From a virus (lineage: Duplodnaviria > Heunggongvirae > Uroviricota > Caudoviricetes), in the IMG/VR virus record IMGVR_UViG_3300033553_000816: DNA of 64,000 nt; one strand, given 5' to 3'. The translations under genes were made by a program, and so were the position numbers. Positions 46,449 through 62,782 of the stretch are shown here, piece after piece (within the stretch, counting starts at the first letter, position 1; every line of letters begins with the position of its first letter). The notes below the pieces were generated by a model that had not been told where the DNA came from, ran no database searches, and saw only the letters and a list, made by a program, of their open reading frames with translations.

Positions 46449-47066
46449 TTAGCCATAATATTCGCTAACGTTATTTCCGTTCTCATCATAAGATATAGCG
46501 GTGGGGCCTCCGTCTGTTCTTCCTGACCCACCTGTTTTGACAGCCCATTCCTCTAGCGTTTTGCGCCCTCTCTCATCATAATGGGTGTAAGCCGGTAGAT
46601 TGCCTGTACGATGTTTAACTCCGTCCTCCCGGAATTCTTCCACGGCGAGTTTACCGTTACGATGCCAAGCTCTTACAGTAGGGTTACCTCCAGCTCGATG
46701 TATTTTATTATCTTTATACCAGGTGTGAGCTTCGAGTGGCCCCTCATCGTAATAAGCAATCGAAGCTGGGTGATCTCCATAACTGTTTATCATTCCTTCT
46801 TTAAGCCATATTCTGACAAAAAGCATTCCGGCATAATTGTAATCTCGGGCGTAGTTACGGGTGGATATTTTTACGTGGTGTGTGTAAGGGTCTCTTTTAA
46901 TTTCCACGGGCCCGTTATCGAGGTCGCCAGCTATACTCATATCATCTAAAATTTCAGACATGTCTTTTAATAGTATCTGCCAATAGGTCTCTAAATTAGC
47001 ATCTTCTTGGATGGCTCGTTCTAAAGTCTCTATGAAACTTGCTGCGTTAATTCTGTTGTTAGACAT
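46449..47066 (-). CDS. Family B MORN-like repeat protein
   Basis: N-terminal domain ...AASFIETLERAIQEDANLETYWQILLKDMSEILDDM, then repeats ...HRAGGNPTVRAWHRNGKL..EE. Confidence 0.75.
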   Translation of the reverse strand: MSNNRINAASFIETLERAIQEDANLETYWQILLKDMSEILDDMSIAGDLDNGPVEIKRDPYTHHVKISTRNYARDYNYAGMLFVRIWLKEGMINSYGDHPASIAYYDEGPLEAHTWYKDNKIHRAGGNPTVRAWHRNGKLAVEEFREDGVKHRTGNLPAYTHYDERGRKTLEEWAVKTGGSGRTDGGPTAISYDENGNNVSEYYG

Positions 47067-47068
47067 CT

Positions 47069-47923
47069 TTATTCCCTGCTTCGATAATTATATGCTAACG
47101 GACCTTCAGGAATTGGATCTGTTGGTCGCCCGTTAACATGCCATTCTTCTTTAATTACTTTACCATGATCGTTATATTGTATGAGTGCTGGACCTCCATC
47201 ATCACGGTGAAGCTTCCCTCTCACTCGCCATTCTTCAGTGGCTTTTTTACCGCCAACACCGCTGTGGATTAGTGCTGGCAGGTTACCGTCACGATGAAGC
47301 TGCCCGTTGATATACCATTCCTCTACTGTTTTATACCCGTCATGACTGTACCAGTATGTGACTGCTGGCTTATCACCATCACGATGGAATTTACCTTTTA
47401 TGCGCCACTCTTCAATTATTTTACGCCCAGTTTCTTCATTATAGTATGTGAGTGCGGAGTTTCCTTGGCGGTGAAGGTCGCCGTTCTCTCGCCATTCTTC
47501 CCCAGCCACCCTACCGTCATTATAGTAAGTTCTTTTAGCTGGTTTACCTCCGTCACGGTGCAGCTTACCTTTCTTATACCATTCTTCGTATGATAATTGG
47601 CTACTATCAGTGTCATAGTATATTACCCCTGGATTATCCTTATAGCTATGGCTTGTGTTGCCTTCTCTGCTGAACCAACTTTTACTTGATACCTTCCCAG
47701 TTGAAATGTACTCCCGGAGATAACAACGTGTCGATACGGTGATAGACCCTATCGGGCTTATCCTTGTGATGTAGATATGCCCGGCGTCTGTGTCTGGCAG
47801 GTTTACTTCATCCAAGATGCTGGACATGTCCCGCAGTAACAAGCTCCTGTAGGGCTGTAAGGCAGAATCCTTGATTAGGGCTTCATCTAAAGCTTCTATG
47901 AAATTAACTGCGTTAAATGACAT
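47069..47923 (-). CDS. Family B MORN-like repeat protein (about 9 repeats)
   Basis: ...SLLLRDMSSILDEVN..., then repeats KKGKLHRDGGKPAKRTYYNDGRVAGEEWRENGDLHR.... Confidence 0.8.
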   Translation of the reverse strand: MSFNAVNFIEALDEALIKDSALQPYRSLLLRDMSSILDEVNLPDTDAGHIYITRISPIGSITVSTRCYLREYISTGKVSSKSWFSREGNTSHSYKDNPGVIYYDTDSSQLSYEEWYKKGKLHRDGGKPAKRTYYNDGRVAGEEWRENGDLHRQGNSALTYYNEETGRKIIEEWRIKGKFHRDGDKPAVTYWYSHDGYKTVEEWYINGQLHRDGNLPALIHSGVGGKKATEEWRVRGKLHRDDGGPALIQYNDHGKVIKEEWHVNGRPTDPIPEGPLAYNYRSRE

Positions 47924-47925
47924 TT

Positions 47926-48612
47926 TTATATCTCCTCTAAGATCTGGCCATTTTCACGGTAAATTATTGCGCGTGGCCCATGATAACCAGCGGGTCGGGT
48001 TTCGTCATAAAACAGCTCTGATTGGATTTGTCCGTTATGGAAGTACTCAATCTCAACCGGTTTACCTGGTTCTCTAGAGAGTTTACCTTCTAATCTCCAT
48101 TCCTCCTTACATACATTCCCGTTCTCATAGTAATATACTTCTGCTGGTTTATCACCCTCCCGGTGTGGTTTGTTACCTTCCTGGTACCAGGCTTCCGAGT
48201 CTACATTACCGTTCGCATGGTAGCTTACGAAAGTTGGTTTATCGCCCCCTCGAAACCAATCCCCTTCATTATGCCACGCTTCGGATGATTTGTAAGAACT
48301 TCCTTCATGGTAGGTAATAACAGCTGGCTTACCACCCTCACGGTGCTCTTTACCGTCCTTATACCAAGTCTCTGAGATTACATGGTTTTTGAAATAAAAC
48401 CTACGATATGATTTTGTTGATATCATAAAGTGTTGACCTATGGAAACAAAATTGAATGTTGCTGCAGTATCCCCGGCATTGTAAGCTTCGTTAAGCATGG
48501 TGGACATATCTTCCAAAGCTTTTTTACGATCAGACACGGTTACTTTACCTGAGTTGAACAGCTGCTCTAAAATATTTATGTAATCAGCTGCAGACATATT
48601 CTCATGAACCAT
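47926..48612 (-). CDS. Family B MORN-like repeat protein
   Basis: AADYINILEQLF...RKKALEDMSTMLNEA, then repeats ...HREGGKPAVITYHEG. Confidence 0.8.
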   Translation of the reverse strand: MVHENMSAADYINILEQLFNSGKVTVSDRKKALEDMSTMLNEAYNAGDTAATFNFVSIGQHFMISTKSYRRFYFKNHVISETWYKDGKEHREGGKPAVITYHEGSSYKSSEAWHNEGDWFRGGDKPTFVSYHANGNVDSEAWYQEGNKPHREGDKPAEVYYYENGNVCKEEWRLEGKLSREPGKPVEIEYFHNGQIQSELFYDETRPAGYHGPRAIIYRENGQILEEI

Positions 48613-49298
48613 TAGACGGCACCACCGTTTGTTTTCAGGATGAACAGCTGACCGTTCATGAAATATTTGTTCTCTAAAGCCATGCCGTTTTTAGAATATA
48701 TTACCTCTACAGGGTATGTTAGATCTTCCCTGAGATGCTCACCTTTGATACACCATTCCTCCATGTAGACCTTTCCGTTCTCATGGTAACGTATAAGAGC
48801 GGGTTTATCCCCACTGCGGTGCTTGTAACGACCTTCTAGCCAAACTTCAGCGGAGAGATTACCGTTCTCATGGAATGTTCTCATGGAGGGCTTATCCCCG
48901 TCCCTGTGGAGTTTACCTTCCCTCCACCATTGTTCAGATAGTATATTACCGCCATCTTCATAAAGCATGAAAGCTGGTTTATCACCCTCGCGGTGTTTAC
49001 GCCCGGCTTTGTTTGTGAATCTGCGGCTCTCTATTGTGCTTTCAGATGTATAAATCCTTTCGTAGCTGGGGCTACGTAAACATAAATTACCTTCTTCTTT
49101 TCGTATAGAGACAGTACTATCGGCGTCAGCCTGCTGGGTATTTTGAATAGGGTCATCGTTAAGGTCATCCAACAGTGAGTTCATATCTTTCAAGAGGACT
49201 GAGCGGTCCTTTTGGGTTATGCTACCGTCGTCCGTTGCGGTTTCTATTAGAGTGATAAGGGCAGCTGCTGTAATCAAAGGTTCGTTTTTTATCCCCAT
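48612..49298 (-). CDS. Family B MORN-like repeat protein
   Basis: ...DRSVLLKDMNSLLDDLND..., then repeats ...HREGDKPAFMLYEDGGNILSEQWWREGKLHRDGDKPS.... Confidence 0.8.
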   Translation of the reverse strand: MGIKNEPLITAAALITLIETATDDGSITQKDRSVLLKDMNSLLDDLNDDPIQNTQQADADSTVSIRKEEGNLCLRSPSYERIYTSESTIESRRFTNKAGRKHREGDKPAFMLYEDGGNILSEQWWREGKLHRDGDKPSMRTFHENGNLSAEVWLEGRYKHRSGDKPALIRYHENGKVYMEEWCIKGEHLREDLTYPVEVIYSKNGMALENKYFMNGQLFILKTNGGAV

Positions 49299-49300
49299 GA

Positions 49301-49693
49301 TCAGTATCCGTGTGCCTCTCTTATTTCTCTTTTACCTATCTTCCCATCATACCACGATTCTAGCCTAATAACAAGCTCGTCATCATCATAGACAATCACT
49401 GCTGGTTTATCCCCCTCGCGATGTAGTTTACCGCTCCTGACCCATATCTCTTGTGTTTTCTTCCCATACTTGGATAAAGACAGTTCATAGTTGCTACTTG
49501 ATAGTAATATCCCACTGTCATCTGCCCTTCGATATATTTTCAACTCTTCTTCCGTGCCGTCTTTACCATTAAGTTTACTAACTATAGCGGACACACCAAC
49601 TAATAAGGCTTTGCGTTGCTGCAAGTTAATGACCCCGTGTTTGAAGTTGACTTCAACTTCACCTATCAGATCAGCTGCCGTAATATTAACCAT
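49301..49693 (-). CDS. Family B MORN-like repeat protein (short)
   Basis: AADLIGEVEVNFKHGVINLQQRKALLVGVSAIVSKLN, then ...GKLHREGDKPAVIVYDDD. Confidence 0.75.
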   Translation of the reverse strand: MVNITAADLIGEVEVNFKHGVINLQQRKALLVGVSAIVSKLNGKDGTEEELKIYRRADDSGILLSSSNYELSLSKYGKKTQEIWVRSGKLHREGDKPAVIVYDDDELVIRLESWYDGKIGKREIREAHGY

Positions 49694-50276
49694 TATGTAC
49701 CGCGCGTTTCTTAAATTCCTCTTGCTTTATCAGAGCCCCATGACTGTAATGTGCCATATGGGTAACCTCGCCCGAGTTATCATATTTTATGACAGCCGGT
49801 TCATTGAGTTCGCTACCTAATTTACCTTTATCATCATACCATTGCTCTATGTGTTTGTTGCCGTTCTGGTGGTAAAAAATTAGGGACGGTTTACTGTCAG
49901 CACGATACCGGGTGTCGCTTCTGAAATACTCTTCGCTGAGTATCTCACCCGTGTCGTAATATGTTATGAAAGCTGGGGCATCATTATCGCGGTGCCGCCT
50001 GAATTCTTTCAACCATTTATCGTATTTCAAAGCGTCTTTAGTGTAGTACCTTTCATAGTTTCGGCCAGCTATCAACAGGGACCCGTCATTACCATCTTCA
50101 ATAACTAATGAGGTTAAAGAACTTTTACTTTCGTTAAGGTTGCGAACTGTTTCTTCTAAGTCGCCAACAGCTAATTCAAAGAGCTGGCGTGAGATTTTAT
50201 TTAATCTGTATTTGCTCTCTAGCTTTTTTATCAAATATTCAACAGAGAATACTTCCTCTAGTTCTGTATCTTCCAT
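49686..50276 (-). CDS. Family B MORN-like repeat protein
   Basis: Repeats ...HRDNDAPAFITYYDTGEILSEEYF...SKPSLIFYHQNGN.... Confidence 0.75.
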   Translation of the reverse strand: MEDTELEEVFSVEYLIKKLESKYRLNKISRQLFELAVGDLEETVRNLNESKSSLTSLVIEDGNDGSLLIAGRNYERYYTKDALKYDKWLKEFRRHRDNDAPAFITYYDTGEILSEEYFRSDTRYRADSKPSLIFYHQNGNKHIEQWYDDKGKLGSELNEPAVIKYDNSGEVTHMAHYSHGALIKQEEFKKRAVHNG

Positions 50277-50344: not shown

Positions 50345-50839
50345 TTAACCTAAAAAATTACCATTCTCGTCGTATTCGTTAAGCTTTTCTGGCTGCCCCG
50401 GTAGTTGAGGCCAGAATTTAGCGCTAATATTACCGTTAGTATGGTAAAAAATTTGGTCAGGTTTATTAGGCTCGTTCTCGCGCCGCTTTTCCGAAGACCA
50501 ATTTTCGCTTAACTTACTGCCATCAGGCCTGTATTTAACTAAGTCCGGTTTGTCATCTCCTCTATAAAGAATTCCGTGGCTGGACCACCCTTCGAAACTT
50601 TTAGTGCCGTTCGGGTTGTAAACCCTCCTGTATGTGTTCGTTTCAATAGAGTAATTACCGCCTTCGTTAAGTGTGTTAACGAAATCTATTTCATCACTGT
50701 TTTCGTTAATGTTTTCAACTATTTCAGACATGTCTCGCATGAATATTTTACGTTCAGCTTCTGAAATTTCTTTTTTGGCAACTGCTTTTTCTATTGCTTT
50801 TATGAAGTCAGCTGCGGTGAAAAATTCTCTATGTGTCAT
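50345..50839 (-). CDS. Family B MORN-like repeat protein
   Basis: Likely start MTHREFFTAADFIKAIEKA (the track starts earlier, at 50887, overlapping the neighbour). ...RKIFMRDMSEIVENINEN. Confidence 0.75.
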   Translation of the reverse strand: MTHREFFTAADFIKAIEKAVAKKEISEAERKIFMRDMSEIVENINENSDEIDFVNTLNEGGNYSIETNTYRRVYNPNGTKSFEGWSSHGILYRGDDKPDLVKYRPDGSKLSENWSSEKRRENEPNKPDQIFYHTNGNISAKFWPQLPGQPEKLNEYDENGNFLG

Positions 50840-51405
50840 CCGCGCCTCCGAATTTCTAATCCGCTTATTACCCTGCCGTTTTCCCATTTTTCTGTTAGGA
50901 TTACATTGTTGTTATGGTCGTAAGTGACTTTAGCTGGTTTACCGCCAAGCCTGTGAAGACGATCATTCACATACCAGGATTCTGTATCAACATTTCCGTT
51001 AGGGTGGTAACTTATTGTAGTGGGTAAATCATTTCCTCTTGAAAGCTTCCCATATTCCCACCATTGTTCAGATTTAGGGGAACCTTTAGCGTAATAAATT
51101 ATTCTAGCTGGTTTACCATTCAGCCTGTGTGGACGGTGCTGATAATCCAACCATGTTTCTTCTAAGGGTATGGTGCTTCCTTTCTCATAAAACCTGTTAT
51201 ACCATGAGGTGATGACGGATACTCTGTCGTGGTTGTTACTGAAAGAGATGTTCATAATTCCGTTAGTGTCGTTCTCATTGAAATTATCTACCAGCTCAGA
51301 CATGTCTTTAAGTAGTAGTTGTCTTTCCTTCTCGGTTATTTTACCTACTTTTAAACTTTCGTCAACGTCAGAAATGAAGTCCGCTGCTGTGTAGAAGTGT
51401 GACAT
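50836..51405 (-). CDS. Family B MORN-like repeat protein
   Basis: Likely start MSHFYTAADFISDVDESL at 51405 with AAAGGA upstream (the track start is 51462). ...QLLLKDMSELVDNFNEN. Confidence 0.75.
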   Translation of the reverse strand: MSHFYTAADFISDVDESLKVGKITEKERQLLLKDMSELVDNFNENDTNGIMNISFSNNHDRVSVITSWYNRFYEKGSTIPLEETWLDYQHRPHRLNGKPARIIYYAKGSPKSEQWWEYGKLSRGNDLPTTISYHPNGNVDTESWYVNDRLHRLGGKPAKVTYDHNNNVILTEKWENGRVISGLEIRRRG

Positions 51406-51448: not shown

Positions 51449-52042
51449 TTAATGCCTGTCATAAGTTATTTTAGTTGGCTTCCCGCCACCTCTTGAATAC
51501 TCACCATTTATTAACCACTCTTCAGATTTTATTTTACCATTATCATAATAACGGATGGAAGCTGGTTTATCGCCTTTACGATGGCACTGGTCGTTTTCAT
51601 ACCACTCTTCAACTCCGAGTACCCCATTTTCGTGGCGTAGTAACAAAGCTGGTTTATCTGACCCTCGATGTAAACCGCCGTCTTTATGCCAGTATTGAGA
51701 AACTACTTGCCCGTCTTCTTGGTAACCTATTGAGCTTGGGGTATCTTTGTAGCTTTGTTTGTTGTTTCTGCTGTTATAATTTGTTTCTTTGTCTTTTATA
51801 CCATCTGTAGTGTACCGTCTAGCATAGTTTGGATTACTCACCTCAATATCACCCATGTACTCACCAATTCCTATTACATGGTTGAGCTCAGGGGAACTAT
51901 AATAATAGTTCATTTTATCTAAAATGTCAGACATGTCTCGTAACAAGAATTTCTTATATTTCTCAAAGTACTGTTTTCTGCTACAAATTTCATCTAAAAT
52001 AGCTATGAAATCAGCCGCACGGTAAGGACTGTTATTGCCCAT
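51449..52042 (-). CDS. Family B MORN-like repeat protein
   Basis: AADFIAILDEICS...KFLLRDMSDILDKMN, then repeats ...HRGSDKPALLLRHENG...HRKGDKPASIRYYDNG. Confidence 0.8.
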   Translation of the reverse strand: MGNNSPYRAADFIAILDEICSRKQYFEKYKKFLLRDMSDILDKMNYYYSSPELNHVIGIGEYMGDIEVSNPNYARRYTTDGIKDKETNYNSRNNKQSYKDTPSSIGYQEDGQVVSQYWHKDGGLHRGSDKPALLLRHENGVLGVEEWYENDQCHRKGDKPASIRYYDNGKIKSEEWLINGEYSRGGGKPTKITYDRH

Positions 52043-52059: not shown

Positions 52060-52680
52060 TTAATATTTGAGCAGATATTCTTCTCTATCAACTGTGCCGT
52101 TTTCTTTATAAAACACTCTCGCTGGTTTAGTGAACTTTTCAACCTCTGTGAAGCCTTTTGTGTTGTGTTGAATGTATTTGAGATTACCGTTCTCATAATA
52201 TTCGAGACTCACGGGTCCGTTAGTCTCTCTGTGTATTTCCCCAAATATACGCCACTGCTTTAATTTTAGTTTACCGTTCAGGTAATATTCTAGGATAGCT
52301 GGCTCATCTCCGCTGCGGTTTATTCTGTTATGTGAGTACCATACTTCTTTTTCTATGTTTCTGTTCTTATGATAGGTTGTGATAGCTGGTTTGTCATTAT
52401 CGCGCCCCGGTTCGTTGGTTCCTTCTTCGAAATAGTTGTCGCTAACCAGATGACCTTCTTTGTATGTACGACGGTATATTCCGTTATAGACATAGAGGCT
52501 GCTGCTGAAAGGTTTCTCACCTCTTATAAGAACTTTCTTAGCGTTGGAATTTTCGTTCAGTTTTTCAACAATGTCGGAGATATCTCGGAGGAGGATTTTG
52601 CGTTCATCAGCTGAAATAGCGTTAATTCTGAAATTACTTTCAACTAAATATATGAAATCAGCTGCCTGGTATGACCCCAT
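52060..52680 (-). CDS. Family B MORN-like repeat protein
   Basis: AADFIYLVESNF...RKILLRDISDIVEKLNEN, then repeats. Confidence 0.8.
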   Translation of the reverse strand: MGSYQAADFIYLVESNFRINAISADERKILLRDISDIVEKLNENSNAKKVLIRGEKPFSSSLYVYNGIYRRTYKEGHLVSDNYFEEGTNEPGRDNDKPAITTYHKNRNIEKEVWYSHNRINRSGDEPAILEYYLNGKLKLKQWRIFGEIHRETNGPVSLEYYENGNLKYIQHNTKGFTEVEKFTKPARVFYKENGTVDREEYLLKY

Positions 52681-56457: not shown

Positions 56458-56718
56458 TTATATCTCCATAGAAGATATGCGGTTACAGCTCCGGCATATC
56501 CAATGTAAAGAATGGTCGTCATGTACATCTTCGTTATATAAGTTTATGGTGTACTCAATGTAATTAAAATCAGGGTCCTCAGCGATTTTTTCATCTATTT
56601 CAGCATCAGTTAGCACCGGGTAGTAAAGTTTACAGTCTATATCTGGGTTACCGCCGAACAGTCTTTCCTGCTCACCTATGGTACAGAGTTTCATAACAAC
56701 AGTTTTTTCTTCAGTCAT
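56458..56718 (-). CDS. Family C small zinc-ribbon protein (paralog of 62537..62782)
   Basis: MTEEKTVVMKLCTIGEQ...DCKLYYPVLTDAEIDEKIAEDPDFNYIEY...HWICRSCN. Shares the C..C ... YYPV.T..EIDE....PDFNYI......HWIC..CN core. Confidence 0.7.
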   Translation of the reverse strand: MTEEKTVVMKLCTIGEQERLFGGNPDIDCKLYYPVLTDAEIDEKIAEDPDFNYIEYTINLYNEDVHDDHSLHWICRSCNRISSMEI

Positions 56719-56818
56719 TTTGCCACGCCCTTAAATATTTTCCTCAATCGATAATATATACCTATCGAGCATACGTCTACAATAGATTATAGCACCTTAC
56801 GAAGTTAACTTCAACTGT

Positions 56819-57247
56819 TTAGTAAACATCTTCTTGAGTGTCCGCATCTGCGCTGTAGTTGATAACAGCTGGTTTGCCTCCGCTGCGCATTATCGCATTT
56901 CTTTTGAACCATGTAGCAACGCGCCTGCGCCCTTTCTTATCATATACTATGCGGGCAGGCATATCACCTTCACGATGGGTTTTATTCTCTAGGAGCCATT
57001 CTTCTGCGGCAATAATACCTTCGTCAGAATAATACCTTGTGTAAGTATCAGTTTCAATAGATAAGAAATATCCGGGTTTTCTCCCTATGAATATTTCTTG
57101 TGCAGGTCCGTTCTCTTTTGTTTTATTTAGCATGTCCGCCATGTCATGTAGAAGGATTTTACGCTCATCTTCGGATATTGTTTCAGTTTCGACTTTTGTC
57201 TCTAATTCAGCTAAGAAGTCAGACGCTGTTATATCATGATTAACCAT
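56819..57247 (-). CDS. Family B MORN-like repeat protein (short)
   Basis: ASDFLAELETKVE...RKILLHDMADMLNKTKEN, then ...HREGDMPARIVYDKKG.... Confidence 0.75.
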   Translation of the reverse strand: MVNHDITASDFLAELETKVETETISEDERKILLHDMADMLNKTKENGPAQEIFIGRKPGYFLSIETDTYTRYYSDEGIIAAEEWLLENKTHREGDMPARIVYDKKGRRRVATWFKRNAIMRSGGKPAVINYSADADTQEDVY

Positions 57248-57298: not shown

Positions 57299-57742
57299 TT
57301 ACCAGTGGTGCCGTTCGGTTGTTCTTTCTTCACCGTTCTCATAGTAATGTACAACAGTTTCTTTATCTCCTTTACGGTAAGCTTCTCCGTGATGGAACCA
57401 ATGTTCCATTTTTTTGTTACCGTTCTCATAGTATCTGATGGACGCTGGTTTACCGCCGCCCCTGTGTTTCAGCTTCTCATACATCCAGAACTCACGCTCT
57501 GGCCTGCCGTTCCCACGATAAGTTACATCATAGTTGTTGCTACTAACATCAAGGTATCTTTCTGTTCCTATCCTGAAGGTTCGGATAGTTAAATATTCTA
57601 TAACCCCGTTCTCGCTGGCTTTATCTAAAATATCAAGCATATCTCTCAACAGAGTTTTTCGTTCACTGTCAGATATTAGCTTCTCAGTATGCGCTTTCTC
57701 TATTTCAGTTATGAAATATGTTGTCGTTATTTTATCCTTCAT
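57299..57742 (-). CDS. Family B MORN-like repeat protein
   Basis: Likely start MKDKITTTYFITEIEKA (the track start is 57769). ...RKTLLRDMLDILDKASEN. Confidence 0.75.
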   Translation of the reverse strand: MKDKITTTYFITEIEKAHTEKLISDSERKTLLRDMLDILDKASENGVIEYLTIRTFRIGTERYLDVSSNNYDVTYRGNGRPEREFWMYEKLKHRGGGKPASIRYYENGNKKMEHWFHHGEAYRKGDKETVVHYYENGEERTTERHHW

Positions 57743-58202
57743 CTGCGTATCCTTGCTGTATGCCATCAACCCAGTGCTCTTCTCTCATAACAGTTCCATC
57801 GGGTCGATAAAAAATTGCTGCCGGTAAACCATTATCACGATGTTCATCCCCGGAGGAGAACCACTCCTCAGATTTTATTTTACCGTTTGTATAGTAGTTT
57901 ATTACAGCTGGCTTATCTCCGCCTCTATTCTGAGCGCCTTCCTGGTCGTTCCATTCTTCGCTAGCTATAACCCCTGTTTTGTAGTACCCTCTGATGTAAC
58001 CAAAACTCACAACAAACGCGTTATGTTCAAGAAAAACTGTGTTAACTGACGAGTTTGCCATATAGTTCTCGTTTATTTTTTCAATAATGTCGGACATGTC
58101 GCGTAAAAATATTTTACGACCTTTTTCTGAAACCCTACCGTTTTTAACTGCTGTTTCAACACGGGAGATAAAATCAGCTGCGGTTATTTTATCTTTCATC
58201 AC
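57732..58202 (-). CDS. Family B MORN-like repeat protein
   Basis: MMKDKITAADFISRVETAV...RKIFLRDMSDIIEKINEN. Confidence 0.8.
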   Translation of the reverse strand: MMKDKITAADFISRVETAVKNGRVSEKGRKIFLRDMSDIIEKINENYMANSSVNTVFLEHNAFVVSFGYIRGYYKTGVIASEEWNDQEGAQNRGGDKPAVINYYTNGKIKSEEWFSSGDEHRDNGLPAAIFYRPDGTVMREEHWVDGIQQGYADEG

Positions 58203-58205: not shown

Positions 58206-58667
58206 TTACCTATTCCGCCTGGAGCCGTTAACCCAGTACTGTTCGTTTATGATTAAACCATCATTATTGTAGGAAACTAATGCTGGTAGGTTATTCTCAC
58301 GGTGCTGGAGGCCATGTAAGTGCCATCCTTCACTTTGTATTTTACCGTTTTCATAATATTCAATTAGGGCAGGTTTATCATTACGCCTAGATAAGCCCTT
58401 TTCGTTAGTCCATTCTTCGATAGCTATAACTCCTGTAATATAATAAGTTCTCACGTATCCTGAGCTTATAATAGCTGTCCTATATTTGAAAAAATCTGGG
58501 AAATAGATATTTACAGGGCCGCCTATGTACTGCTCATTTATTTTATCAACAATGTCAGACATGTCCCGTAGAAGAACTTTTCGGCCCAGCTCTAAAACTT
58601 TATCTTCCATAATGGCTTCTTCAATACCGGATATGAAATCCGCTGTGGTGTATTCTGTGTGGCTCAT
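58206..58667 (-). CDS. Family B MORN-like repeat protein
   Basis: TADFISGIEEAIMEDKVLELGRKVLLRDMSDIVDKINEQ. Confidence 0.8.
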   Translation of the reverse strand: MSHTEYTTADFISGIEEAIMEDKVLELGRKVLLRDMSDIVDKINEQYIGGPVNIYFPDFFKYRTAIISSGYVRTYYITGVIAIEEWTNEKGLSRRNDKPALIEYYENGKIQSEGWHLHGLQHRENNLPALVSYNNDGLIINEQYWVNGSRRNR

Positions 58668-58686: not shown

Positions 58687-59331
58687 TTAATTCCGGCGTT
58701 GTACTCGGCTACCGGTGACCCAAAATTCTTCTTCCGCAATTTCACCCTGCTGGTCATAAATTATTCTAGCTGGTTTACCTCCGTCACGATGTATTTCACC
58801 TTTACGGTACCATTGCTCTAGATAAACTTTTCCGTTCTCATAATACTCTATGTAAGACGGCTTGTCACTGTTACGCTGCCGGATACCCCCTTGCGCCCAC
58901 TCTTCTATGTTAGGCTGATTATTATGACCATACATTATGTAAGACGGCTTGTCGTCCTCACGGTTGCGAACACCTTTGTATCTCCATTCTTCTATGTCTA
59001 GCTTGCCGTTCTCATCATATGATATGTAAGCTGGTTTGTCGCCCTCTCGATGTAACTCCTTGAAGTCGTTGTTCTTATACCAAACTTCTGTACTGAGCTT
59101 ATGGTTATAATATGTTCTGACATATCCGGGGAGTTTGAGTTCGAAGAAGTTACCAGCGCCCACCCCTGATCTTATGGATATTGTTTTTTCTGTTCTTCTC
59201 CCGTAATAGATTGAATCTAATATGGCAGGCATGTCTTTGAGTAAAAGTTTTCGCTCCTGGTTACCTATGATCCCTTGTTCAATAGCTTCATCCAGGTAAG
59301 CTAAAAAATCAGCTGCGTCCAGTCTGCTCAT
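58687..59331 (-). CDS. Family B MORN-like repeat protein
   Basis: AADFLAYLDEAIEQGIIGNQERKLLLKDMPAILDSI, then repeats ...HREGDKPAYISYDENG.... Confidence 0.8.
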   Translation of the reverse strand: MSRLDAADFLAYLDEAIEQGIIGNQERKLLLKDMPAILDSIYYGRRTEKTISIRSGVGAGNFFELKLPGYVRTYYNHKLSTEVWYKNNDFKELHREGDKPAYISYDENGKLDIEEWRYKGVRNREDDKPSYIMYGHNNQPNIEEWAQGGIRQRNSDKPSYIEYYENGKVYLEQWYRKGEIHRDGGKPARIIYDQQGEIAEEEFWVTGSRVQRRN

Positions 59332-59356: not shown

Positions 59357-60175
59357 CTAATATTTAACTTTAATGCCTAAGGTAATGCGGTGGTTCTTCC
59401 CTCCGAAAGTACTTCCGTTAACCCAAATCTCTTCTGTTGTTACATTACCCTGCTGATCGTAAACTATTTTAGCTGGTTTGTCATTATCCCTGTTTATTTT
59501 CCCATGAGTTTCGGTGAACCAAACTTCTCCCCATAGTTTACCGTCCTCATAATATTTTATGTGCGCAGGTTTATCATCAGCCCTGAATTTAAGACCTTCT
59601 TTAAGCCACTGCTGGTTCTTCACCTTACCGTTATTATAGTAATTTATGACAGCTGGTTCATCACCATCGCGATGTGTTTTACCTTCTTTAACCCATTCCT
59701 CTAAATAAGGTTTACCATTTTCGAAATACGCTATTTTAGCTGGCTTACCCCCGTCACGATGAAGTTCTTCATCCCTATACCAATGCTCTATGTGCACTTG
59801 GCCGTTTTCGTGATAGCTGATAGCTGCTGGTTTATCACCAGACCTGTTAAGCATCTCGTTGATACCCCTAAAAGTTTCGCGCTGAAGGCTGTAGTTAGCA
59901 GAATACACTCGTGTGTACATTTCACTTTCAACTTTCAACCTACCTTCATAGTTGTTATTGAAAATAATACGACGTGAAGGGGTGCCGTTCTCATGTGCTT
60001 TGTTGAGGATGTCTGACATGTCCCGTAACAGTATTTTGTAATCCTGAAGTGAGATGCGGTTGTTCTCTAAAGCTTCCTCAGCTTTGGTTATGAAATTAGC
60101 TGCGCTGCTGTCATTAGCCATATCTGGGTTTTTGGTTGACTTTATTGTGTAGTTGGGACTGAATGATATTTTCAT
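59357..60175 (-). CDS. Family B MORN-like repeat protein
   Basis: AANFITKAEEALENNRISLQDYKILLRDMSDILNKAHEN, then about 7 repeats. Confidence 0.8.
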   Translation of the reverse strand: MKISFSPNYTIKSTKNPDMANDSSAANFITKAEEALENNRISLQDYKILLRDMSDILNKAHENGTPSRRIIFNNNYEGRLKVESEMYTRVYSANYSLQRETFRGINEMLNRSGDKPAAISYHENGQVHIEHWYRDEELHRDGGKPAKIAYFENGKPYLEEWVKEGKTHRDGDEPAVINYYNNGKVKNQQWLKEGLKFRADDKPAHIKYYEDGKLWGEVWFTETHGKINRDNDKPAKIVYDQQGNVTTEEIWVNGSTFGGKNHRITLGIKVKY

Positions 60176-60181
60176 AGCGCT

Positions 60182-60853
60182 TCACCTCGTGACTGTACTC
60201 GGTTTGCCGTTAAGCCGCTGGTTGATACCGTTATGGTACCATATTTCTTTTGAGACACGGCCATCAGAGCTGTAACTAATATGCGCTGGTTTATCATCAT
60301 CGCGATGCCGCCTACCTTCCGAATGCCACTGTTCGAGTACTTTTGCGGTACCTTCATTATTATACATTATAAGTGACGGTTTGTCATCTTCTCGGTCATG
60401 TAAATTATTTTCAAACCATTGTTCAATGGAGACAGTGCTATTCTCATTGTAAAAAACCATAGCTGGTTTACCATCAGCTCTTACTAGAACATCTTCTTGG
60501 AACCATTCCTCAGAGATGATATTCCCTTTCGTGGTGTAAGCTATCCTCGCTGGTTTATTATCGTCACGGTGAAGTTCACCGGAGCTGTTATAAAAATGCT
60601 CTATTCTCAGTGTGTTCGGCGGGGCGTAATATGTTCTCTCGTAACGTGAGTTAGATATGGAGAGAACCTCTTCTTCTTGTTCTATTCTTAAATTCTCGTC
60701 GCTTTTACCTTCGTTGAACCTATCCAAAATGGTTGACAGGTCATCTAGCAGCATTTTCCGGCTGTCATTTGAAATGGTACCCTGCTCGAAGTGGGAATCT
60801 ATTTCTGATAGTAAGGTCGCGGCGTTATAGAAGATATCACTCATGTTAAACAC
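60182..60853 (-). CDS. Family B MORN-like repeat protein
   Basis: AATLLSEIDSHFEQGTISNDSRKMLLDDLSTILDRFNE, then repeats ...HRDDNKPARIAYTTKG.... Confidence 0.8.
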   Translation of the reverse strand: MFNMSDIFYNAATLLSEIDSHFEQGTISNDSRKMLLDDLSTILDRFNEGKSDENLRIEQEEEVLSISNSRYERTYYAPPNTLRIEHFYNSSGELHRDDNKPARIAYTTKGNIISEEWFQEDVLVRADGKPAMVFYNENSTVSIEQWFENNLHDREDDKPSLIMYNNEGTAKVLEQWHSEGRRHRDDDKPAHISYSSDGRVSKEIWYHNGINQRLNGKPSTVTR

Positions 60854-60883
60854 CCCTTGCTGAATCTAATATCGGAGATAAAC

Positions 60884-61585
60884 TTAATCATCATTTTTAA
60901 CAAAAGCTATCTGCTCACCGTACTCAAACCATTCTTTCGAAGTTACCTCACCGTTTTCGCGATATTCTATTACAGCTGGCCCACCGCTATCACGATGAGG
61001 AGCCCCTTCATCTTTCCATGCTTCTTTAGCTACCTGACCGTTATAATAATATTTTATATAAGCTGGTTTATCTCCGCCTCTAGACATGTTCCCTTGGGCA
61101 TACCACATTTCACAGTATATTTTTCCATCAGCAAAATACTCTACATAAGCTGGTTCATCCCCATTACGATGCCTCTTACCGTTTTCGAACCAATATTGTA
61201 ACTCTATTTCACCTTTTGTGTGATACCTAATATATCCGGGGTAATCTTCGAAGCTGTGACGATCTCCTCTTTTGTTAAAAGTTACTTCATCAGTCAGCAC
61301 CCATTCGGGACCATACATATCTGAGTAATGTATGGTGACATAATTGTTTTGGATTGTGAGTAGAGCCTCTTTAGAAAACACAAGTAAACCGCTGTGATGG
61401 CCTAATCCTGGTCTGTTTAATTTATCTAAAATTATTGACATGTCACGCAACATAATTTTACGTTGAGGTTCGGAAACTTTATCTTCTTTTACGCCAGAAT
61501 TTATGGCAGCAATAAGCTCAGCTGCGGAATGTAAGCTTCTGCCCATCGCCATAATCCTTTCGTATGGTTTAACTGTTACCGGCAA
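60884..61585 (-). CDS. Family B MORN-like repeat protein
   Basis: AAELIAAINSGVKEDKVSEPQRKIMLRDMSIILDKLNRP, then repeats. Confidence 0.8.
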   Translation of the reverse strand: MPVTVKPYERIMAMGRSLHSAAELIAAINSGVKEDKVSEPQRKIMLRDMSIILDKLNRPGLGHHSGLLVFSKEALLTIQNNYVTIHYSDMYGPEWVLTDEVTFNKRGDRHSFEDYPGYIRYHTKGEIELQYWFENGKRHRNGDEPAYVEYFADGKIYCEMWYAQGNMSRGGDKPAYIKYYYNGQVAKEAWKDEGAPHRDSGGPAVIEYRENGEVTSKEWFEYGEQIAFVKNDD

Positions 61586-61652
61586 TATCGCCTTACCTGC
61601 CTTGTTAAAAATATTCTACTGAAGTTCTCTCGCCTTTTGCGAACCACCCTTT

Positions 61653-62528
61653 CTAATACAGCTCACCGTTTTCACGATACATTACCATAGCAGGCATGCC
61701 ACCCTCTCGGTGAAATTCACCATGGACGAACCATTCTTCTTTAGCTACCTGACCGTTTTCATAGTATTCTATTGTAGCAGGCCTTTCATTATCGCGGTGG
61801 AATTCACCAAGGTTGAACCATTCTTCTGAAGCTACCTGACCGTTTTCGCTATATGTTATAGTAGCAGGCATGTCACCTTCTCGGCCAAGTTTACCATGGA
61901 TGAACCATTCTTCTGAAGCCACCTGGCTGTTTTTATAATATTTCACACAAGCTGGCTTATCGCCGTTACGGTAAAAAGATTCTTCAGTTTTCCATTCTTC
62001 TAAAGCAACCTGTCCGTCAGGGTAATATTCGATACGTGACGGTTTTCCGCTGATACATGCGGTACGCCCCCATTTCCACCATTCTTCTTTACGTACCTGG
62101 CCATTTGAATAATATTCAATATAAGCGGGCTGGTCGTTATCGCGATGCTGCGCGTGCTCGAAATGCCAGTACTGCTCTTCTGGTGTGCCGTCAGGGTAGT
62201 ATCTCGCATATGAAGGCTCACCCTGGAAACTATGGTAACCCTGCCCGCCTATGAGGGTTTCCTCTTCAACCACTCCCCAATCAGATCTTCCCTTATTTGA
62301 ATAGTAGATTCTAGTGATGGGGCTGCGCACTAAGAGTTTTCCCCCTTGATCGCTTATAACTATACTCCCGTAAGTAAGTATTTTGGGCCTATTGAATTTC
62401 TCTAGAAGAGAAGGGATATTACTTAACAACATTTTACGTTGAGGTTCAGAAATAATACCTTCCTCTATACTAGAGTTTATTGCGGTAAGCAGCTCAGCGG
62501 CTGAATAGAAACCTTTACGTGTTGACAT
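61653..62528 (-). CDS. Family B MORN-like repeat protein (about 10 repeats, longest)
   Basis: AAELLTAINSSIEEGIISEPQRKMLLSNIPSLLEKFNRP, then repeats ...HRDNDQPAYIEYYSNGQVRKEEWW.... Confidence 0.8.
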   Translation of the reverse strand: MSTRKGFYSAAELLTAINSSIEEGIISEPQRKMLLSNIPSLLEKFNRPKILTYGSIVISDQGGKLLVRSPITRIYYSNKGRSDWGVVEEETLIGGQGYHSFQGEPSYARYYPDGTPEEQYWHFEHAQHRDNDQPAYIEYYSNGQVRKEEWWKWGRTACISGKPSRIEYYPDGQVALEEWKTEESFYRNGDKPACVKYYKNSQVASEEWFIHGKLGREGDMPATITYSENGQVASEEWFNLGEFHRDNERPATIEYYENGQVAKEEWFVHGEFHREGGMPAMVMYRENGELY

Positions 62529-62536
62529 GGGAAACC

Positions 62537-62782
62537 CTACGCGTCGTCGTACTTTGCGTCATTGCAGTACTCACATATCCAATGTAAAGATTCGTCGCCG
62601 TGAACCTCATCCTCATAAGCGTCCCGACTAAAGGTTATGTAATTAAAATCAGGGTTCTCTTTGACCCGCTCATCTATCTCCTGCAGAGTGAACACAGGGT
62701 AATAGACTTTACAGCGTTTAGATCCTGAACCCTCAAGCCCGAGTTCACATACCTTAACTATGCGCGTGTCTTCTGTTGCCAT
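62537..62782 (-). CDS. Family C small zinc-ribbon protein (first gene of minus-strand array)
   Basis: MATEDTRIVKVCELGLEGSGSKRCKVYYPVFTLQEIDERVKENPDFNYITF...HWICEYCN. RBS AAGGGAAC. Confidence 0.7.
   Translation of the reverse strand: MATEDTRIVKVCELGLEGSGSKRCKVYYPVFTLQEIDERVKENPDFNYITFSRDAYEDEVHGDESLHWICEYCNDAKYDDA

What the first reader, a model, noticed from the sequence alone, without database searches (positions are those of the whole stretch)
46449..62782. Second tandem expansion: 24 MORN-like (GDKPA-repeat) genes in two sub-blocks, each headed by a small zinc-ribbon gene
All minus-strand genes from 46.4 to 62.5 kb share a ~55-aa N-terminal domain (AADFI..IE.A......ERK.LLRDMSDILD.LNE). 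It is followed by 3-10 copies of a ~23-aa repeat, W..GKLHR.GDKPA.I.YY.NG....EEW, which resembles MORN / MORN-variant repeats. The array is modular. The family C zinc-ribbon gene 62537..62782 leads B24 to B16. Its paralog 56458..56718 leads B15 to B13. After a gap holding two small membrane ORFs come B12 to B1. Repeat number differs between neighbours, which points to unequal recombination within genes as well as between them. MORN repeats normally mediate membrane or lipid association. A phage-like element carrying two dozen of them with a private N-terminal domain is not something I can assign to a known system.
Basis: partly seen in the sequence, partly recalled or inferred. Interest (0 to 1): 0.8.

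Follow-up and report, generated by a model that had tools for sequence, protein, structure and literature searches.

The report
Phage-like array of MORN-like repeat genes
A probable large phage carries 25 diverged copies of one gene for a soluble beta-sheet repeat protein that has a private N-terminal domain. The family is real, under selection and almost unique to this lineage, but its function is unknown.

Summary
There are 24 minus-strand paralogs at 46449-62528. A 25th sits on the plus strand at 26561-27157. The array has three tightly packed blocks: C1 then B24-B16; C2 then B15-B13; two small membrane ORFs then B12-B1, ending in a beta-solenoid gene.

An AlphaFold model (pLDDT 87.8) shows three helices capping a long single-layer beta-hairpin sheet. 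Its nearest folds are OspA, eukaryotic MORN proteins and giant-virus MORN or YwqK-like proteins. Sequence similarity to Pfam MORN_2 is weak, and canonical MORN does not match.

The N-terminal domain matches only 69 of 1.84 billion representative proteins, about 65 of them genuine and all with this same architecture. Its fold matches nothing diagnostic.

A related genome (NucS 94% identical) also carries tandem B arrays, with C genes inside and at the head. Its B repertoire is largely different. dN/dS is 0.1-0.2, so the genes are functional.

My best reading is a diversified set of cytoplasmic protein binders used in phage-host conflict. That function is inferred, not shown. I found no support for lipid binding.

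The parts
62537..62782 (-). C1: 81-aa acidic protein with four conserved Cys, heading block 1 (8 nt before B24)
   Evidence: The ortholog in L005 (75% identical) is also followed directly by a B24-like gene.
61653..62528 (-). B24 (291 aa, 6-7 repeats). It contains an 87-nt tandem duplication at 61688-61942.
60884..61546 (-). B23 (about 220 aa from the corrected start; the ORF runs to 61585)
   Evidence: External relative P0043 is 76% identical.
60182..60844 (-). B22 (~220 aa, 5 repeats)
59357..60121 (-). B21 (254 aa from the corrected start; the ORF runs to 60175). This is the modelled member, with 5 repeats.
58687..59331 (-). B20 (214 aa, 4 repeats)
58206..58667 (-). B19 (153 aa, 2 repeats). 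It is 50% identical to B18, the closest pair in the array.
57732..58199 (-). B18 (155 aa, 2 repeats)
57299..57742 (-). B17 (147 aa from the corrected start, 2 repeats)
56819..57247 (-). B16 (142 aa, 2 repeats), last gene of block 1
   Evidence: The L006 relative is 60% identical.
56786..56814 (-). Sigma-70-like promoter with extended -10 (TTGAAG-17-TGcTATAAT), upstream of C2
   Evidence: The -10 region TGCTATA(A/G)T is conserved upstream of the C2 ortholog in L006. This is a consensus match only.
56458..56718 (-). C2: 86-aa paralog of C1 (46% identical), heading block 2
   Evidence: The L006 ortholog (58% identical) sits inside a B array.
55659..56381 (-). B15 (237-240 aa, 5 repeats)
55091..55687 (-). 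B14 (198 aa, 4 repeats). It contains an 87-nt tandem duplication at 55169-55330.
54492..55094 (-). B13 (200 aa, 4 repeats), last gene of block 2
54410..54437 (-). Sigma-70-like promoter with extended -10 (GTAACA-16-TGaTATAAT), upstream of m1
   Evidence: This is a consensus match only.
54188..54376 (-). m1: 62-aa hydrophobic ORF (two predicted membrane helices, GTG start)
   Evidence: No family match.
53989..54186 (-). m2: 65-aa hydrophobic ORF (GTG start) that overlaps the start of B12 by 44 nt. Whether it is a real gene is uncertain.
53331..54032 (-). B12 (233 aa, 5 repeats), first B gene of block 3
52683..53330 (-). B11 (215 aa, 4 repeats)
52060..52680 (-). B10 (206 aa, 4 repeats)
51449..52042 (-). 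B9 (197 aa, 3 repeats)
50836..51405 (-). B8 (189 aa from the corrected start, 3 repeats)
50345..50839 (-). B7 (164 aa from the corrected start; ATGA overlap with the B8 stop)
49686..50276 (-). B6 (196 aa, 3 repeats), the most divergent N-terminal domain
49301..49693 (-). B5 (130 aa, 1 repeat), the shortest member
48612..49298 (-). B4 (228 aa, 3 repeats)
47926..48612 (-). B3 (223-228 aa, 4 repeats; 1-nt overlap between its start codon and the B4 stop codon)
47069..47923 (-). B2 (284 aa, 5 repeats)
46449..47066 (-). B1 (205 aa, 4 repeats), last B gene
   Evidence: The L004 relative is 60.5% identical and is also the last gene called on that 2.2-kb contig.
45610..46404 (-). YdcK-like beta-solenoid gene 44 nt downstream of B1 on the same strand. 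It probably ends the transcription unit.
   Evidence: It shares PHROG families 5070 and 7964 with family A.
26561..27157 (+). B25: 25th family member (198 aa, 3 repeats), embedded in the + strand beta-solenoid (family A) array
62988..63560 (+). IS607-family serine transposase, divergent from C1. It marks the upstream boundary of the array. In the related genome NucS lies here instead.

Best explanation
Family B is a lineage-restricted multigene family of soluble, cytoplasmic repeat proteins.

Architecture: each member has a constant ~72-aa N-terminal domain of three helices packed onto the first beta-hairpins. This is followed by 1-7 copies of a 29-aa unit with consensus W-x3-G-K-L-H-R-D-G-D-K-P-A-x-I-x-Y-Y-E-N-G-K-V-x2-E-E. 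Each unit forms one long hairpin, one mini-hairpin and the conserved HRDGDKPA loop. Together the units build an elongated single-layer antiparallel sheet of variable length.

Conserved and variable positions: the framework residues W1, G5, H8, R9, G11-A15, I17, Y19, N22, G23, V25 and E28 are conserved. The alternating strand positions 2-4, 6-7, 16, 18, 26 and 27 are hypervariable.

Proposed mechanism: each paralog presents a different binding surface on a common scaffold, as MORN and YwqK-type proteins do. The constant N-terminal domain supplies a shared function, such as docking to a common partner or oligomerisation.

Expression: the 25 genes appear to be expressed as three translationally coupled polycistronic units from host-type promoters. 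The first two units are headed by the small Cys4 protein C and the third by two small membrane ORFs.

Proposed role: I think the array is a battery of protein binders that a large phage-like element uses against variable host (or competitor) proteins. Its content turns over between close relatives.

Shown: gene structure, fold class, repeat anatomy, absence of export or membrane signals, purifying selection, extreme lineage restriction, C-B linkage in a second genome, and repertoire turnover.

Inferred: protein binding, a role in conflict, the promoter and operon structure, and that the element is a phage.
For: - Architecture and repeat anatomy.
- Structure: the AF2 model has pLDDT 87.8 and pTM 0.82, with three helices and regular hairpins.
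- MORN_2 sequence signal.
- MORN repeats are documented protein-protein interaction modules (PMC7725318). YwqK-type proteins neutralise a toxin by binding (background named).
- Soluble and mostly acidic, with no hydrophobic stretch.
- Tight packing with Shine-Dalgarno-like motifs and stop/start overlaps.
- Extended -10 promoters upstream of C2 and m1. The C2 one is conserved in L006.
- Functional constraint: dN/dS is 0.11-0.21 for four B pairs between genomes. dS was saturated for a fifth pair.
- Lineage restriction: 69 hits to the N-terminal profile at E<=1e-3, all genuine ones with the same architecture. No hits in IMG/VR or JGI metagenomes.
- Turnover: the flanking NucS is 94% identical, yet only 6 of 45 external members are 50% or more identical to any window member. 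L006 keeps the outline order B19-like, B16-like, C2-like, but has unrelated B genes in between.
- Phage-like context: PHROG hits, homologs in large actinobacteriophages, and mostly ORFan genes.
- A second family (A) in the same window has the mirror architecture, and the two families are interleaved.
Against: - No experiment and no homolog of known function ties any B protein to a target.
- No match to anti-defence or defence profiles: PADLOC gave none and PHROGs gave none.
- Gene-wide dN/dS is low and gives no sign of positive selection. Site-wise tests were not possible with two genomes.
- The inner-array 'orthologs' have dS of 1.4-2.6, against 0.6 for the flanking genes. The apparent fast divergence may therefore reflect old paralogy or exchange rather than rapid evolution.
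- The phage nature of the 202,758-bp contig is not demonstrated. No capsid, terminase or tail gene is in the 64-kb window or in L007. No match was found in IMG/VR or in the INPHARED phage records by DNA.
- The promoters are consensus matches only.
Confidence: 0.4

Rival explanations
1. YwqK-type immunity battery. The B proteins are immunity (antitoxin) proteins that each neutralise a different polymorphic toxin, such as an LXG, Rhs or deaminase toxin. The element would then protect its host or itself. This would be a homogeneous 'poly-immunity' locus.
For: The closest annotated sequence relative of the repeats is the MORN_2 / 'toxin-antitoxin system YwqK family antitoxin' class. Tandem arrays and presence/absence turnover are typical of immunity gene clusters (established knowledge of polymorphic toxin systems). 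An unrelated Anaerolineales MAG also carries a tandem array of related repeat genes.
Against: The NCBIfam search returned no match for any of the five B members tested at E<=0.01, so no YwqK-family model matched. No toxin gene (LXG, Rhs, deaminase or nuclease toxin) was found among the genes scanned in the window or in L003-L007. The conserved private N-terminal domain is not a YwqK feature. Known poly-immunity loci mix unrelated immunity families, whereas this one is homogeneous.
Confidence: 0.15
2. Virion-attached variable modules. The constant N-terminal domain anchors each B protein to the capsid, tail or fibres. The variable sheet binds cell-surface or environmental ligands, so the proteins act as decoration proteins or accessory adhesins.
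For: 'Constant N-terminal anchor plus variable distal part' is the classic layout of phage receptor-binding and decoration proteins (established knowledge). The best structural match, OspA, is a surface protein with a single-layer sheet. Large phages can carry many such paralogs.
Against: No structural PHROG, Pfam or PDB match. The proteins are small (130-291 aa) and predicted to be monomeric, with no trimerisation motif. They lie among ORFan, IS-ridden, early-looking genes with host-type promoters, not in a morphogenesis module. Two membrane ORFs and a Cys4 protein head the blocks.
Confidence: 0.12
3. Membrane or lipid-associated MORN proteins. The repeats would tether the proteins, or cargo bound to the N-terminal domain, to the host membrane.
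For: The historical annotation of MORN is 'membrane occupation and recognition nexus'. Two small membrane ORFs sit within the array. Fusobacterium MORN2 proteins are reported in outer-membrane vesicles (bioRxiv 10.1101/534297).
Against: The B proteins are acidic to neutral, with no basic or hydrophobic patch evident in the sequence. TbMORN1 showed no binding to membranes or vesicles, and MORN repeats were reinterpreted as protein-protein modules (PMC7725318). Most Fusobacterium MORN2 proteins have signal sequences, which B lacks. Canonical MORN does not match at all.
Confidence: 0.07
4. Chromosomal or plasmid island of a bacterium rather than a phage. The arrays would serve the cell, for example as a diversified cytoplasmic scaffold or an inter-bacterial conflict system. 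The phage-like genes would be incidental.
For: No hallmark phage gene was seen in 64 kb plus 10 kb of sequence. IS607/TnpB, GNAT, YdjM, SPFH, NucS and RecX are all common cellular genes. There is no hit in IMG/VR. The weak repeat hits in the plasmid collection fall on large Curtobacterium and other replicons.
Against: The 707-aa protein matches a phage-only family over its full length (phrog_33734, E 1e-59; 47% identical to Mycobacterium phage WXIN). The SPFH protein is closest to Arthrobacter phage proteins. A WDGH domain and many ORFans are present. There are no tRNA, rRNA or metabolic genes. The contig is 202,758 bp, in the size range of large phage genomes.
Confidence: 0.15
5. Decaying or selfish duplicates with no function.
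For: Very high copy number. Some members are short (B5 has one repeat). There are possible B fragments upstream of C in L005.
Against: All 25 ORFs are intact and have ribosome-binding sites. dN/dS is 0.11-0.21. Framework residues are conserved across paralogs only 24-50% identical.
Confidence: 0.03

Closest known systems
Pfam MORN_2 (PF07661, 'MORN repeat variant') / YwqK-family antitoxins of LXG toxin systems
   Same: Beta-hairpin repeats rich in Y/W-x-N-G turns build an elongated sheet. There is weak but real profile similarity: 9 of 24 members at E<=0.01, and a consensus array at E 6e-27. The proteins are small and soluble. YwqK acts by binding and neutralising a protein.
   Different: The period is 29 aa with a conserved HRDGDKPA loop, against 22 aa. 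B24, the best scorer of the members whose scores I saw, reaches the Pfam cut-off. No NCBIfam model, YwqK or otherwise, matched the five B members tested. No adjacent toxin gene was found. The private 72-aa N-terminal domain is absent from YwqK proteins.
Eukaryotic MORN repeat proteins (PF02493: TbMORN1, junctophilins, MORN4, SET7/9 N-domain)
   Different: No sequence match to PF02493. Their period is 23 aa with a YxGxWxxGKxHGxG signature, against 29 aa with WxxxGKLHRDGDKPA. B is a prokaryotic or viral cytoplasmic protein.
Multigene families of repeat proteins in giant viruses (MORN-repeat paralogs of Orpheovirus, Hyperionvirus, megaviruses; ankyrin/F-box families of pandoraviruses and poxviruses)
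   Same: A virus genome devotes many genes to diverged paralogs of one repeat scaffold. These are the best structural matches in the viral model library, including Powai lake megavirus, Orpheovirus and mimivirus R871. Some, such as the poxvirus Ank/PRANC proteins, combine a constant terminal adaptor domain with variable repeats (my own knowledge). Their function is mostly unknown, but is thought to be host interaction.
   Different: Those are eukaryotic viruses with 0.3-2.7 Mb genomes. Here the element is about 0.2 Mb and prokaryotic. The genes sit in strict head-to-tail operon-like blocks with translational coupling. The N-terminal domain is unrelated to F-box or PRANC.
MORN2-domain gene expansions in Fusobacterium (20 to more than 40 genes per genome) and Helicobacter bilis
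   Same: A large lineage-specific expansion of MORN-variant proteins of unknown function in a prokaryotic genome, clustered with other conflict or adhesion genes (bioRxiv 10.1101/534297).
   Different: Most Fusobacterium proteins have signal sequences and are surface-associated or secreted. B proteins have none. The repeat period differs, and Fusobacterium proteins lack the shared N-terminal domain. The expansion is chromosomal, not phage-like.
Tandem array of 23-aa 'HRLDGPA' repeat genes in an Anaerolineales MAG (L002, DAOTVW010000328.1), found here and, as far as I know, undescribed
   Same: At least 11 head-to-tail genes with stop/start overlaps. Each has constant terminal modules and a variable number (2-11) of W-x-x-N-G-K-x-H-R-x-D-G-P-A repeats that match the B repeat HMM.
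   Different: The period is 23 aa. The terminal modules are different: an unrelated N-terminal segment plus a conserved C-terminal tail. There is no B-type N-terminal domain and no C gene. The context is bacterial.

Membership tests
Canonical MORN repeat (Pfam PF02493) | Sequence match to the 23-aa YxGxWxxGKxHGxG repeat profile | tested here: not met
   No PF02493 hit for any of the 24 members at E<=0.01 or for 4 members at E<=1. The period is 29 aa.
Canonical MORN repeat (Pfam PF02493) | Fold: single-layer antiparallel beta-sheet of hairpin repeats | tested here: met
MORN repeat variant (Pfam PF07661, MORN_2) | Whole-protein score at or above the gathering cut-off (29.6 bits) | tested here: inconclusive
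   B24 scores 32.1 bits (pass), B21 28.1 and B13 17.3 (fail), and B2 has no hit. 9 of 24 members match at E<=0.01. A six-repeat consensus scores 90.9 bits.
MORN repeat variant (Pfam PF07661, MORN_2) | 22-residue repeat period | tested here: not met
   The period is 29 aa / 87 nt. Only 10-12 residues of each unit (the Y-Y-E-N-G-K-V turn region) align to the profile.
YwqK-family antitoxin (NCBIfam) / immunity protein of polymorphic toxin systems | Match to the NCBIfam YwqK family model | tested here: not met
   The NCBIfam search returned no match at all for the five B proteins tested at E<=0.01.
YwqK-family antitoxin (NCBIfam) / immunity protein of polymorphic toxin systems | Adjacent cognate toxin gene (LXG, Rhs, deaminase and the like) | tested here: not met
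   No such gene was found among the window genes scanned or in L003-L007. The neighbours are B, C, m1/m2, a beta-solenoid gene, IS607 and NucS.
Zinc ribbon (for family C) | Two CxxC-type knuckles, or a match to a zinc-ribbon profile | tested here: inconclusive
   Four conserved Cys are arranged C-x11/16-C ... C-x2-C, with conserved His61 and His67, across the four full-length homologs. Only C2 gives a sub-threshold hit to Zn_ribbon_LapB (E 0.08, 13.1 vs 25.7 bits). No structure was predicted.
Phage receptor-binding / tail-fibre proteins | Homology to known anchor or receptor-binding domains, and location in a tail module | tested here: not met
   No PHROG, Pfam or PDB sequence match. No tail or baseplate genes were identified nearby.
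Known anti-phage defence systems (PADLOC) | Match to any defence-system protein model | tested here: not met
   0 families for B24, B21, B2, C1, C2 and five neighbouring proteins at E<=0.01.
Bacteriophage genome (context claim) | Hallmark genes (terminase, portal, major capsid, tail) on the same contig | not testable with these tools
   Only 64 kb of the 202,758-bp contig, plus an 11-kb related contig (L007), could be read. They hold phage-family genes but no hallmark gene. The single genome-contig scan did not return the source contig.

The most novel reading that the evidence does not exclude
Family B, and the mirror-image family A, may be a phage equivalent of the eukaryotic-virus 'adaptor plus repeat' families such as poxvirus Ank/PRANC and F-box proteins. 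On this reading the invariant N-terminal domain docks every paralog onto one common machine. That machine could be the co-transcribed Cys4 protein C, a host protease or chaperone, or a phage compartment. Each variable beta-sheet would capture a different host protein, for example a defence effector, for sequestration or destruction. The array would then be a combinatorial, rapidly reshuffled counter-defence repertoire making up about a quarter of a ~200-kb phage genome. As far as I know, this has not been described for bacteriophages.
Probability: 0.12. Interest if true: 0.85.

Novelty: new variant of a known kind. Interest (0 to 1): 0.55.

Why it matters
Large tandem families of repeat-scaffold proteins are a hallmark of giant eukaryotic viruses and of some bacteria. 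I know of no phage described with such an array. Here 25 B genes and 32 family A genes fill about 50 kb of a 202.8-kb, phage-like contig.

Both families follow the same 'constant end plus variable repeat surface' logic. Both are under purifying selection. The B repertoire differs strongly between two genomes whose flanking genes are about 90% identical.

If the proteins are binders aimed at host factors, the array offers a ready-made library of natural single-layer beta-sheet binders. It would also be a tractable system for studying how a phage diversifies a recognition repertoire.

The work also defines two things absent from Pfam, PHROGs and NCBIfam: a 29-aa HRDGDKPA repeat class and a ~72-aa N-terminal domain. 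Finally, it shows that related HRxDGPA repeat genes form tandem arrays in an unrelated bacterium, an Anaerolineales MAG.

Tried and rejected
- DNA searches of 16-kb pieces of the window against 50,697 phage records found no match.
- Alignment-based locus searches with A1 and A2 failed, because no stretch was conserved enough.
- The single genome-contig scan, run with a family consensus, used low-degeneracy peptides. It returned only an Anaerolineales repeat array, not the source genome, so the organism stays unidentified.
- IMG/VR and JGI metagenome scans with B21, with the LLRDMSDI motif and with family C found no relatives.
- Cluster look-ups gave no accession or name. A literature search for the run accessions SRR13628065 and ERR10493341 found nothing.
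- The AFDB Foldseek library was unavailable.
- A PDB sequence search with the family profile gave only chance-level hits (best E 0.085, peptide deformylase).
- Rfam found no RNA family in the window, and there are no tRNAs.
- The terminator scan was at background level (14 found against 14.6 expected).
- Recent unequal crossing-over was considered and rejected as the main explanation for the present array. No paralog pair exceeds 50% identity and no repeat pair exceeds 62%. Similarity does not depend on distance (rho -0.06).
- 'Fast evolution' of B orthologs was considered and then weakened. The pairs also have much higher dS than the flanking genes, so old paralogy or exchange is equally possible.

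Full report
**1. What is there.**
Between 46449 and 62782 every substantial minus-strand ORF belongs to one of three sets.
- 24 paralogs (B1-B24) of 130-291 aa.
- Two small acidic paralogs, C1 (62537-62782) and C2 (56458-56718), 46% identical.
- Two short hydrophobic ORFs, m1 (54188-54376) and m2 (53989-54186).

An HMM of the shared N-terminal domain hits all 24 B genes at E 4e-14 to 8e-27. It hits exactly one further ORF in the whole window, at 26561-27157 on the + strand (B25).

Several ORFs as listed mechanically carry spurious 5' extensions. With starts placed at the Met that precedes the conserved domain, the genes are separated by 0-25 nt or overlap by ATGA/TAATG. Most have Shine-Dalgarno-like motifs.

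Longer gaps of 85-115 nt flank C2 and precede m1. The order is C1, B24-B16 | C2, B15-B13 | m1, m2, B12-B1. A YdcK-like beta-solenoid gene (45610-46404) follows 44 nt after B1 on the same strand.

Its repeat length (~23 aa) and copy number (3-10) are not.

**2. Anatomy of the protein.**
The K-P-A motif recurs every 29 residues. DNA repeat families recur every 87 nt.

A repeat HMM finds 88 units in 25 proteins, 1 to 6-7 per protein. The consensus is W-x-x-(N/E)-G-K-L-H-R-D-G-D-K-P-A-x-I-x-Y-Y-E-N-G-K-V-x-x-E-E.

Positions 1, 5, 8, 9, 11-15, 17, 19, 22, 23, 25 and 28 are conserved. Positions 2-4, 6-7, 16, 18, 26 and 27 are close to random. Positions 9 and 14 were fixed by my seed pattern.

AlphaFold2 on the 24-paralog alignment gave a confident model of B21 (pLDDT 87.8, pTM 0.82). 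It has three short helices, then a regular succession of hairpins. Each 29-aa unit forms a long hairpin (positions 16-19 and 25-29), a mini-hairpin around W1-L7, and the HRDGDKPA loop.

The proteins have no hydrophobic segment (maximum 19-residue hydropathy <=1.34). 23 of the 25 have a pI below 7.5. I infer that they are soluble and cytoplasmic.

**3. What the fold and the sequence resemble.**

Foldseek against predicted viral structures gives 150 hits at E<=1e-3. They are led by uncharacterised megavirus proteins and mimivirus R871 at 22-26% identity. Many giant-virus 'MORN repeat' proteins follow. So do a 'MORN variant [uncultured Caudovirales phage]' and 'YwqK family antitoxin' models.

At sequence level canonical MORN does not match at all. 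MORN_2 matches 9 of 24 members at E<=0.01. B24, the best-scoring of the members whose scores I saw, passes the Pfam cut-off. A synthetic array of six consensus repeats reaches E 6e-27. Only the Y-Y-E-N-G-K-V turn aligns.

PHROGs, NCBIfam and PADLOC give nothing, and no solved structure matches by sequence.

The repeat is therefore a distinct, unannotated 29-aa relative of the MORN-variant class. Shorter-period relatives (22-24 aa, HRxDGPA or HRDxDKPA) are scattered in other metagenomic proteins.

**4. The N-terminal domain is private.**
A profile of the ~72-aa domain was searched against 1.84 billion representative proteins. It found 69 at E<=1e-3.
- Four are low-complexity or repetitive false positives.
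- 20 are window members.
- The remaining 45 all have the same architecture, the N-terminal domain followed by 29-aa repeats.

**5. Relatives elsewhere and the test of C-B linkage.**
The window's proteins occur in NCBI, IMG and Logan on a 202,758-bp contig. A Logan contig from SRR13628065 is 100% identical to 59163-62483.

The external members I could trace all come from one other run, ERR10493341. There every contig is again a head-to-tail B array: L003 has five B genes and L004 has four.
- L006 reads B(B19-like, 60%)-B(B16-like, 60%)-B(no ortholog)-C(C2-like, 58%)-B(no ortholog).
- L005 reads NucS (opposite strand), an 85-aa gene, C (75% to C1), then at once a B gene whose first 52 residues are 81% identical to B24.

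So C both heads and punctuates B arrays in a second genome.

A third, truncated C copy (62 aa, lacking the C-terminal CxxC) lies on the window's own contig. It sits next to NucS and abuts a 98-nt match (94% identical) to the window at 33481-33576, which overlaps the partial IS607 transposase copy (L007). In the window an IS607 transposase sits where NucS sits in L005. IS607 activity has probably rearranged the head of the array.

**6. Evolution.**
Paralogs in the window are 24-50% identical. B18/B19 is the closest pair. Similarity does not decline with distance (rho -0.06). Individual repeats are at most 62% identical.

Only 6 of 61 repeats have their nearest relative in the same protein, and these are in B24 and B14. 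Those are also the only genes with detectable 87-nt tandem DNA repeats, at 76-78% identity. The expansion is therefore old, and there is little evidence for current unequal exchange.

Between the two genomes, NucS is 94% identical (dN 0.03, dS 0.60) and its neighbour is 90% identical. The B24 N-terminus has dS 0.68 and dN/dS 0.14.

The inner 'orthologs' are only 48-60% identical, with dN 0.28-0.39 and dS 1.4 to saturation. dN/dS is 0.11-0.21. Only 6 of 45 external members are >=50% identical to any window member.

Two conclusions are safe. The genes are constrained and hence functional. The repertoire differs far more than the surrounding genome.

I cannot tell whether that difference comes from fast divergence, differential loss of old paralogs, or exchange.

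**7. Expression signals.**
The promoter scan is only modestly above its shuffled expectation (65 sites against 45.6 +/- 8.4). Two of its best minus-strand sites carry an extended -10 and lie in the long gaps: TTGAAG-17-TGcTATAAT before C2, and GTAACA-16-TGaTATAAT before m1. The -10 region before C2 is conserved upstream of its L006 ortholog.

Upstream of C1 there is a conserved hairpin (62885-62902), also present in L005, but no convincing promoter. Terminator-like sites are at background level.

Three host-RNA-polymerase-driven polycistronic units is a reasonable inference. It is not a demonstration.

**8. Context.**
The rest of the window is dominated by a second family, A. It has 32 + strand ORFs between 2.5 and 41 kb. 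They are beta-solenoid proteins (hexapeptide, YdcK or bactofilin-like) of variable length. They share a conserved C-terminal module, GNCKFGG...DFVxKYG...LTDVWDMG. This is the mirror image of B's design.

The two families are interleaved: B25 lies inside A, and a solenoid gene ends the B array.

Other genes in the window are listed below.
- IS607 transposase and TnpB.
- An SPFH protein, closest (41%) to Arthrobacter phage proteins.
- A 707-aa protein of phage family phrog_33734, 47% identical to a Mycobacterium phage WXIN protein.
- A WDGH-domain protein.
- YdjM, a GNAT acetyltransferase and an HTH regulator.
- Many ORFans.

No tRNA or Rfam family is present. L007 adds NucS, RecX-like, radical-SAM and deoxyribosyltransferase genes among ORFans.

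This looks like a large, possibly actinobacterial, phage. But I saw no hallmark gene, and the organism could not be identified.

**9. Interpretation.**
The data fit a family of soluble scaffold proteins. Conserved framework residues hold a single-layer sheet, and the exposed alternating positions differ from copy to copy. MORN-type sheets are established protein-protein interaction modules (PMC7725318). Their bacterial cousins of the YwqK type act by binding a toxin.

A constant terminal domain, a variable repeat surface, many tandem copies, turnover between close relatives and a mobile-element context is the signature of conflict-related recognition families. I therefore favour (0.4) a battery of cytoplasmic binders directed at variable host or competitor proteins, with the N-terminal domain providing a common coupling function.

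The rivals I considered are as follows.
- A YwqK-like immunity battery (0.15). No toxin gene was found and no NCBIfam match.
- Virion-attached variable modules (0.12). There is no structural homology and the context looks early.
- A cellular rather than phage island (0.15). This affects context only.
- Membrane or lipid association (0.07). The sequence gives no support, and the MORN lipid paradigm has been weakened.
- Non-functional duplicates (0.03). This is contradicted by dN/dS and the intact ORFs.

**10. Novelty.**
Expansions of MORN-like proteins are known in giant viruses (PMC6418002) and in Fusobacterium. The kind is therefore known. What I take to be new:
- the 29-aa HRDGDKPA repeat class;
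- the private N-terminal domain;
- the strict operon-like tandem organisation with a Cys4 leader gene;
- the occurrence in a phage-like prokaryotic element;
- the pairing with a second, mirror-image expanded family.

I rate it a new variant of a known kind, of moderate to good interest. It would be of high interest if the adaptor-plus-binder reading were verified.

Noticed in passing
window 2517-41008 (+), e.g. 12658-13188, 14346-15035, 24934-25620; also 45610-46404 (-): This is the 'first' tandem expansion, family A, with 32 paralogs. Each has a variable-length beta-solenoid (hexapeptide, YdcK or bactofilin-like) followed by a conserved ~55-aa C-terminal module, GNCKFGG.A.F.GL...DFV.KYG..KV....I.LTDVWDMG. 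The design is the mirror image of family B, and the two families are interleaved.
   Followed up: partly
L002 1-6024 (MAG TPA_asm Anaerolineales bacterium, DAOTVW010000328.1): At least 11 head-to-tail genes with stop/start overlaps. Each has a conserved N-terminal segment (M.IASLKFS...PSFYDVKIDD.GN..YYN), 2-11 copies of a 23-aa W.VNGK.HRLDGPA repeat, and a conserved C-terminal tail (IG.S..GFTDE.FE.WKKEHGL). This is an independent tandem array of the same repeat superfamily in a bacterium. Pfam recognises it only through an incidental DUF6745 hit.
   Followed up: partly
window 62988-63560 (+), 63550-64000 (+), 33189-33542 (+), 20974-22206 (+); L007 10001-10253: An IS607-family transposase, with a TnpB-like ORF starting at 63550, borders the array. 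A partial transposase copy lies at 33.2-33.5 kb, and a separate TnpB (OrfB_IS605/Cas12f-like) at 21-22 kb. A truncated third C gene on the same contig abuts a 98-nt match to this partial copy, next to NucS. IS activity seems to have rearranged the head of the B array.
   Followed up: partly
window 4000-12000: This region has a strong strand composition bias (GC skew +0.26 to +0.48, AT skew down to -0.42) and raised G+C (up to 0.51). It holds a V/G/R/A-rich 666-aa ORF (5417-7417, +) with predicted membrane segments and a weak DUF3137 hit. It also holds a well-supported 707-aa phage-family gene on the opposite strand (8114-10237, phrog_33734). The composition suggests foreign origin or an unusual gene, and the 666-aa ORF may be partly spurious.
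   Followed up: no
window 31436-32572, 8114-10237; L005/L007 NucS genes: The closest phage homologs of the non-repeat genes are in actinobacteriophages: SPFH 41% to Arthrobacter phages, the 707-aa protein 47% to Mycobacterium phage WXIN and 28% to Rhodococcus phage Weasels2. NucS, typical of Actinobacteria and Archaea, flanks the array in related contigs. The window itself has only ~42% G+C. The host is unresolved.
   Followed up: partly
window 62885-62902: A hairpin (ACCACT-TTGACC-AGTGGT with an adjacent A/T run) in the C1 upstream region is conserved in the related contig L005. The scan called it a + strand terminator, but its role is unknown. It could be a terminator for the divergent transposase side, or an operator.
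   Followed up: no
window 3-1166 (-) and 1170-2250: A very acidic (D/E-rich) ORF runs off the start of the window. It is followed by about 1 kb of C/A-rich, ORF-poor sequence (GC skew -0.44).
   Followed up: no
window 30707-30804: A 39-nt tandem repeat (2.4 copies, 83% matches) that encodes an acidic D/E/Y/H-rich peptide repeat inside ORF 30212-30811.
   Followed up: no
L005 1277-1692: Two short ORF fragments with weak to moderate matches to the B N-terminal domain HMM (E 1e-4 and 7e-10) lie just upstream of, and overlap, the C gene in the related genome. They may be remnants of a decayed B gene.
   Followed up: no
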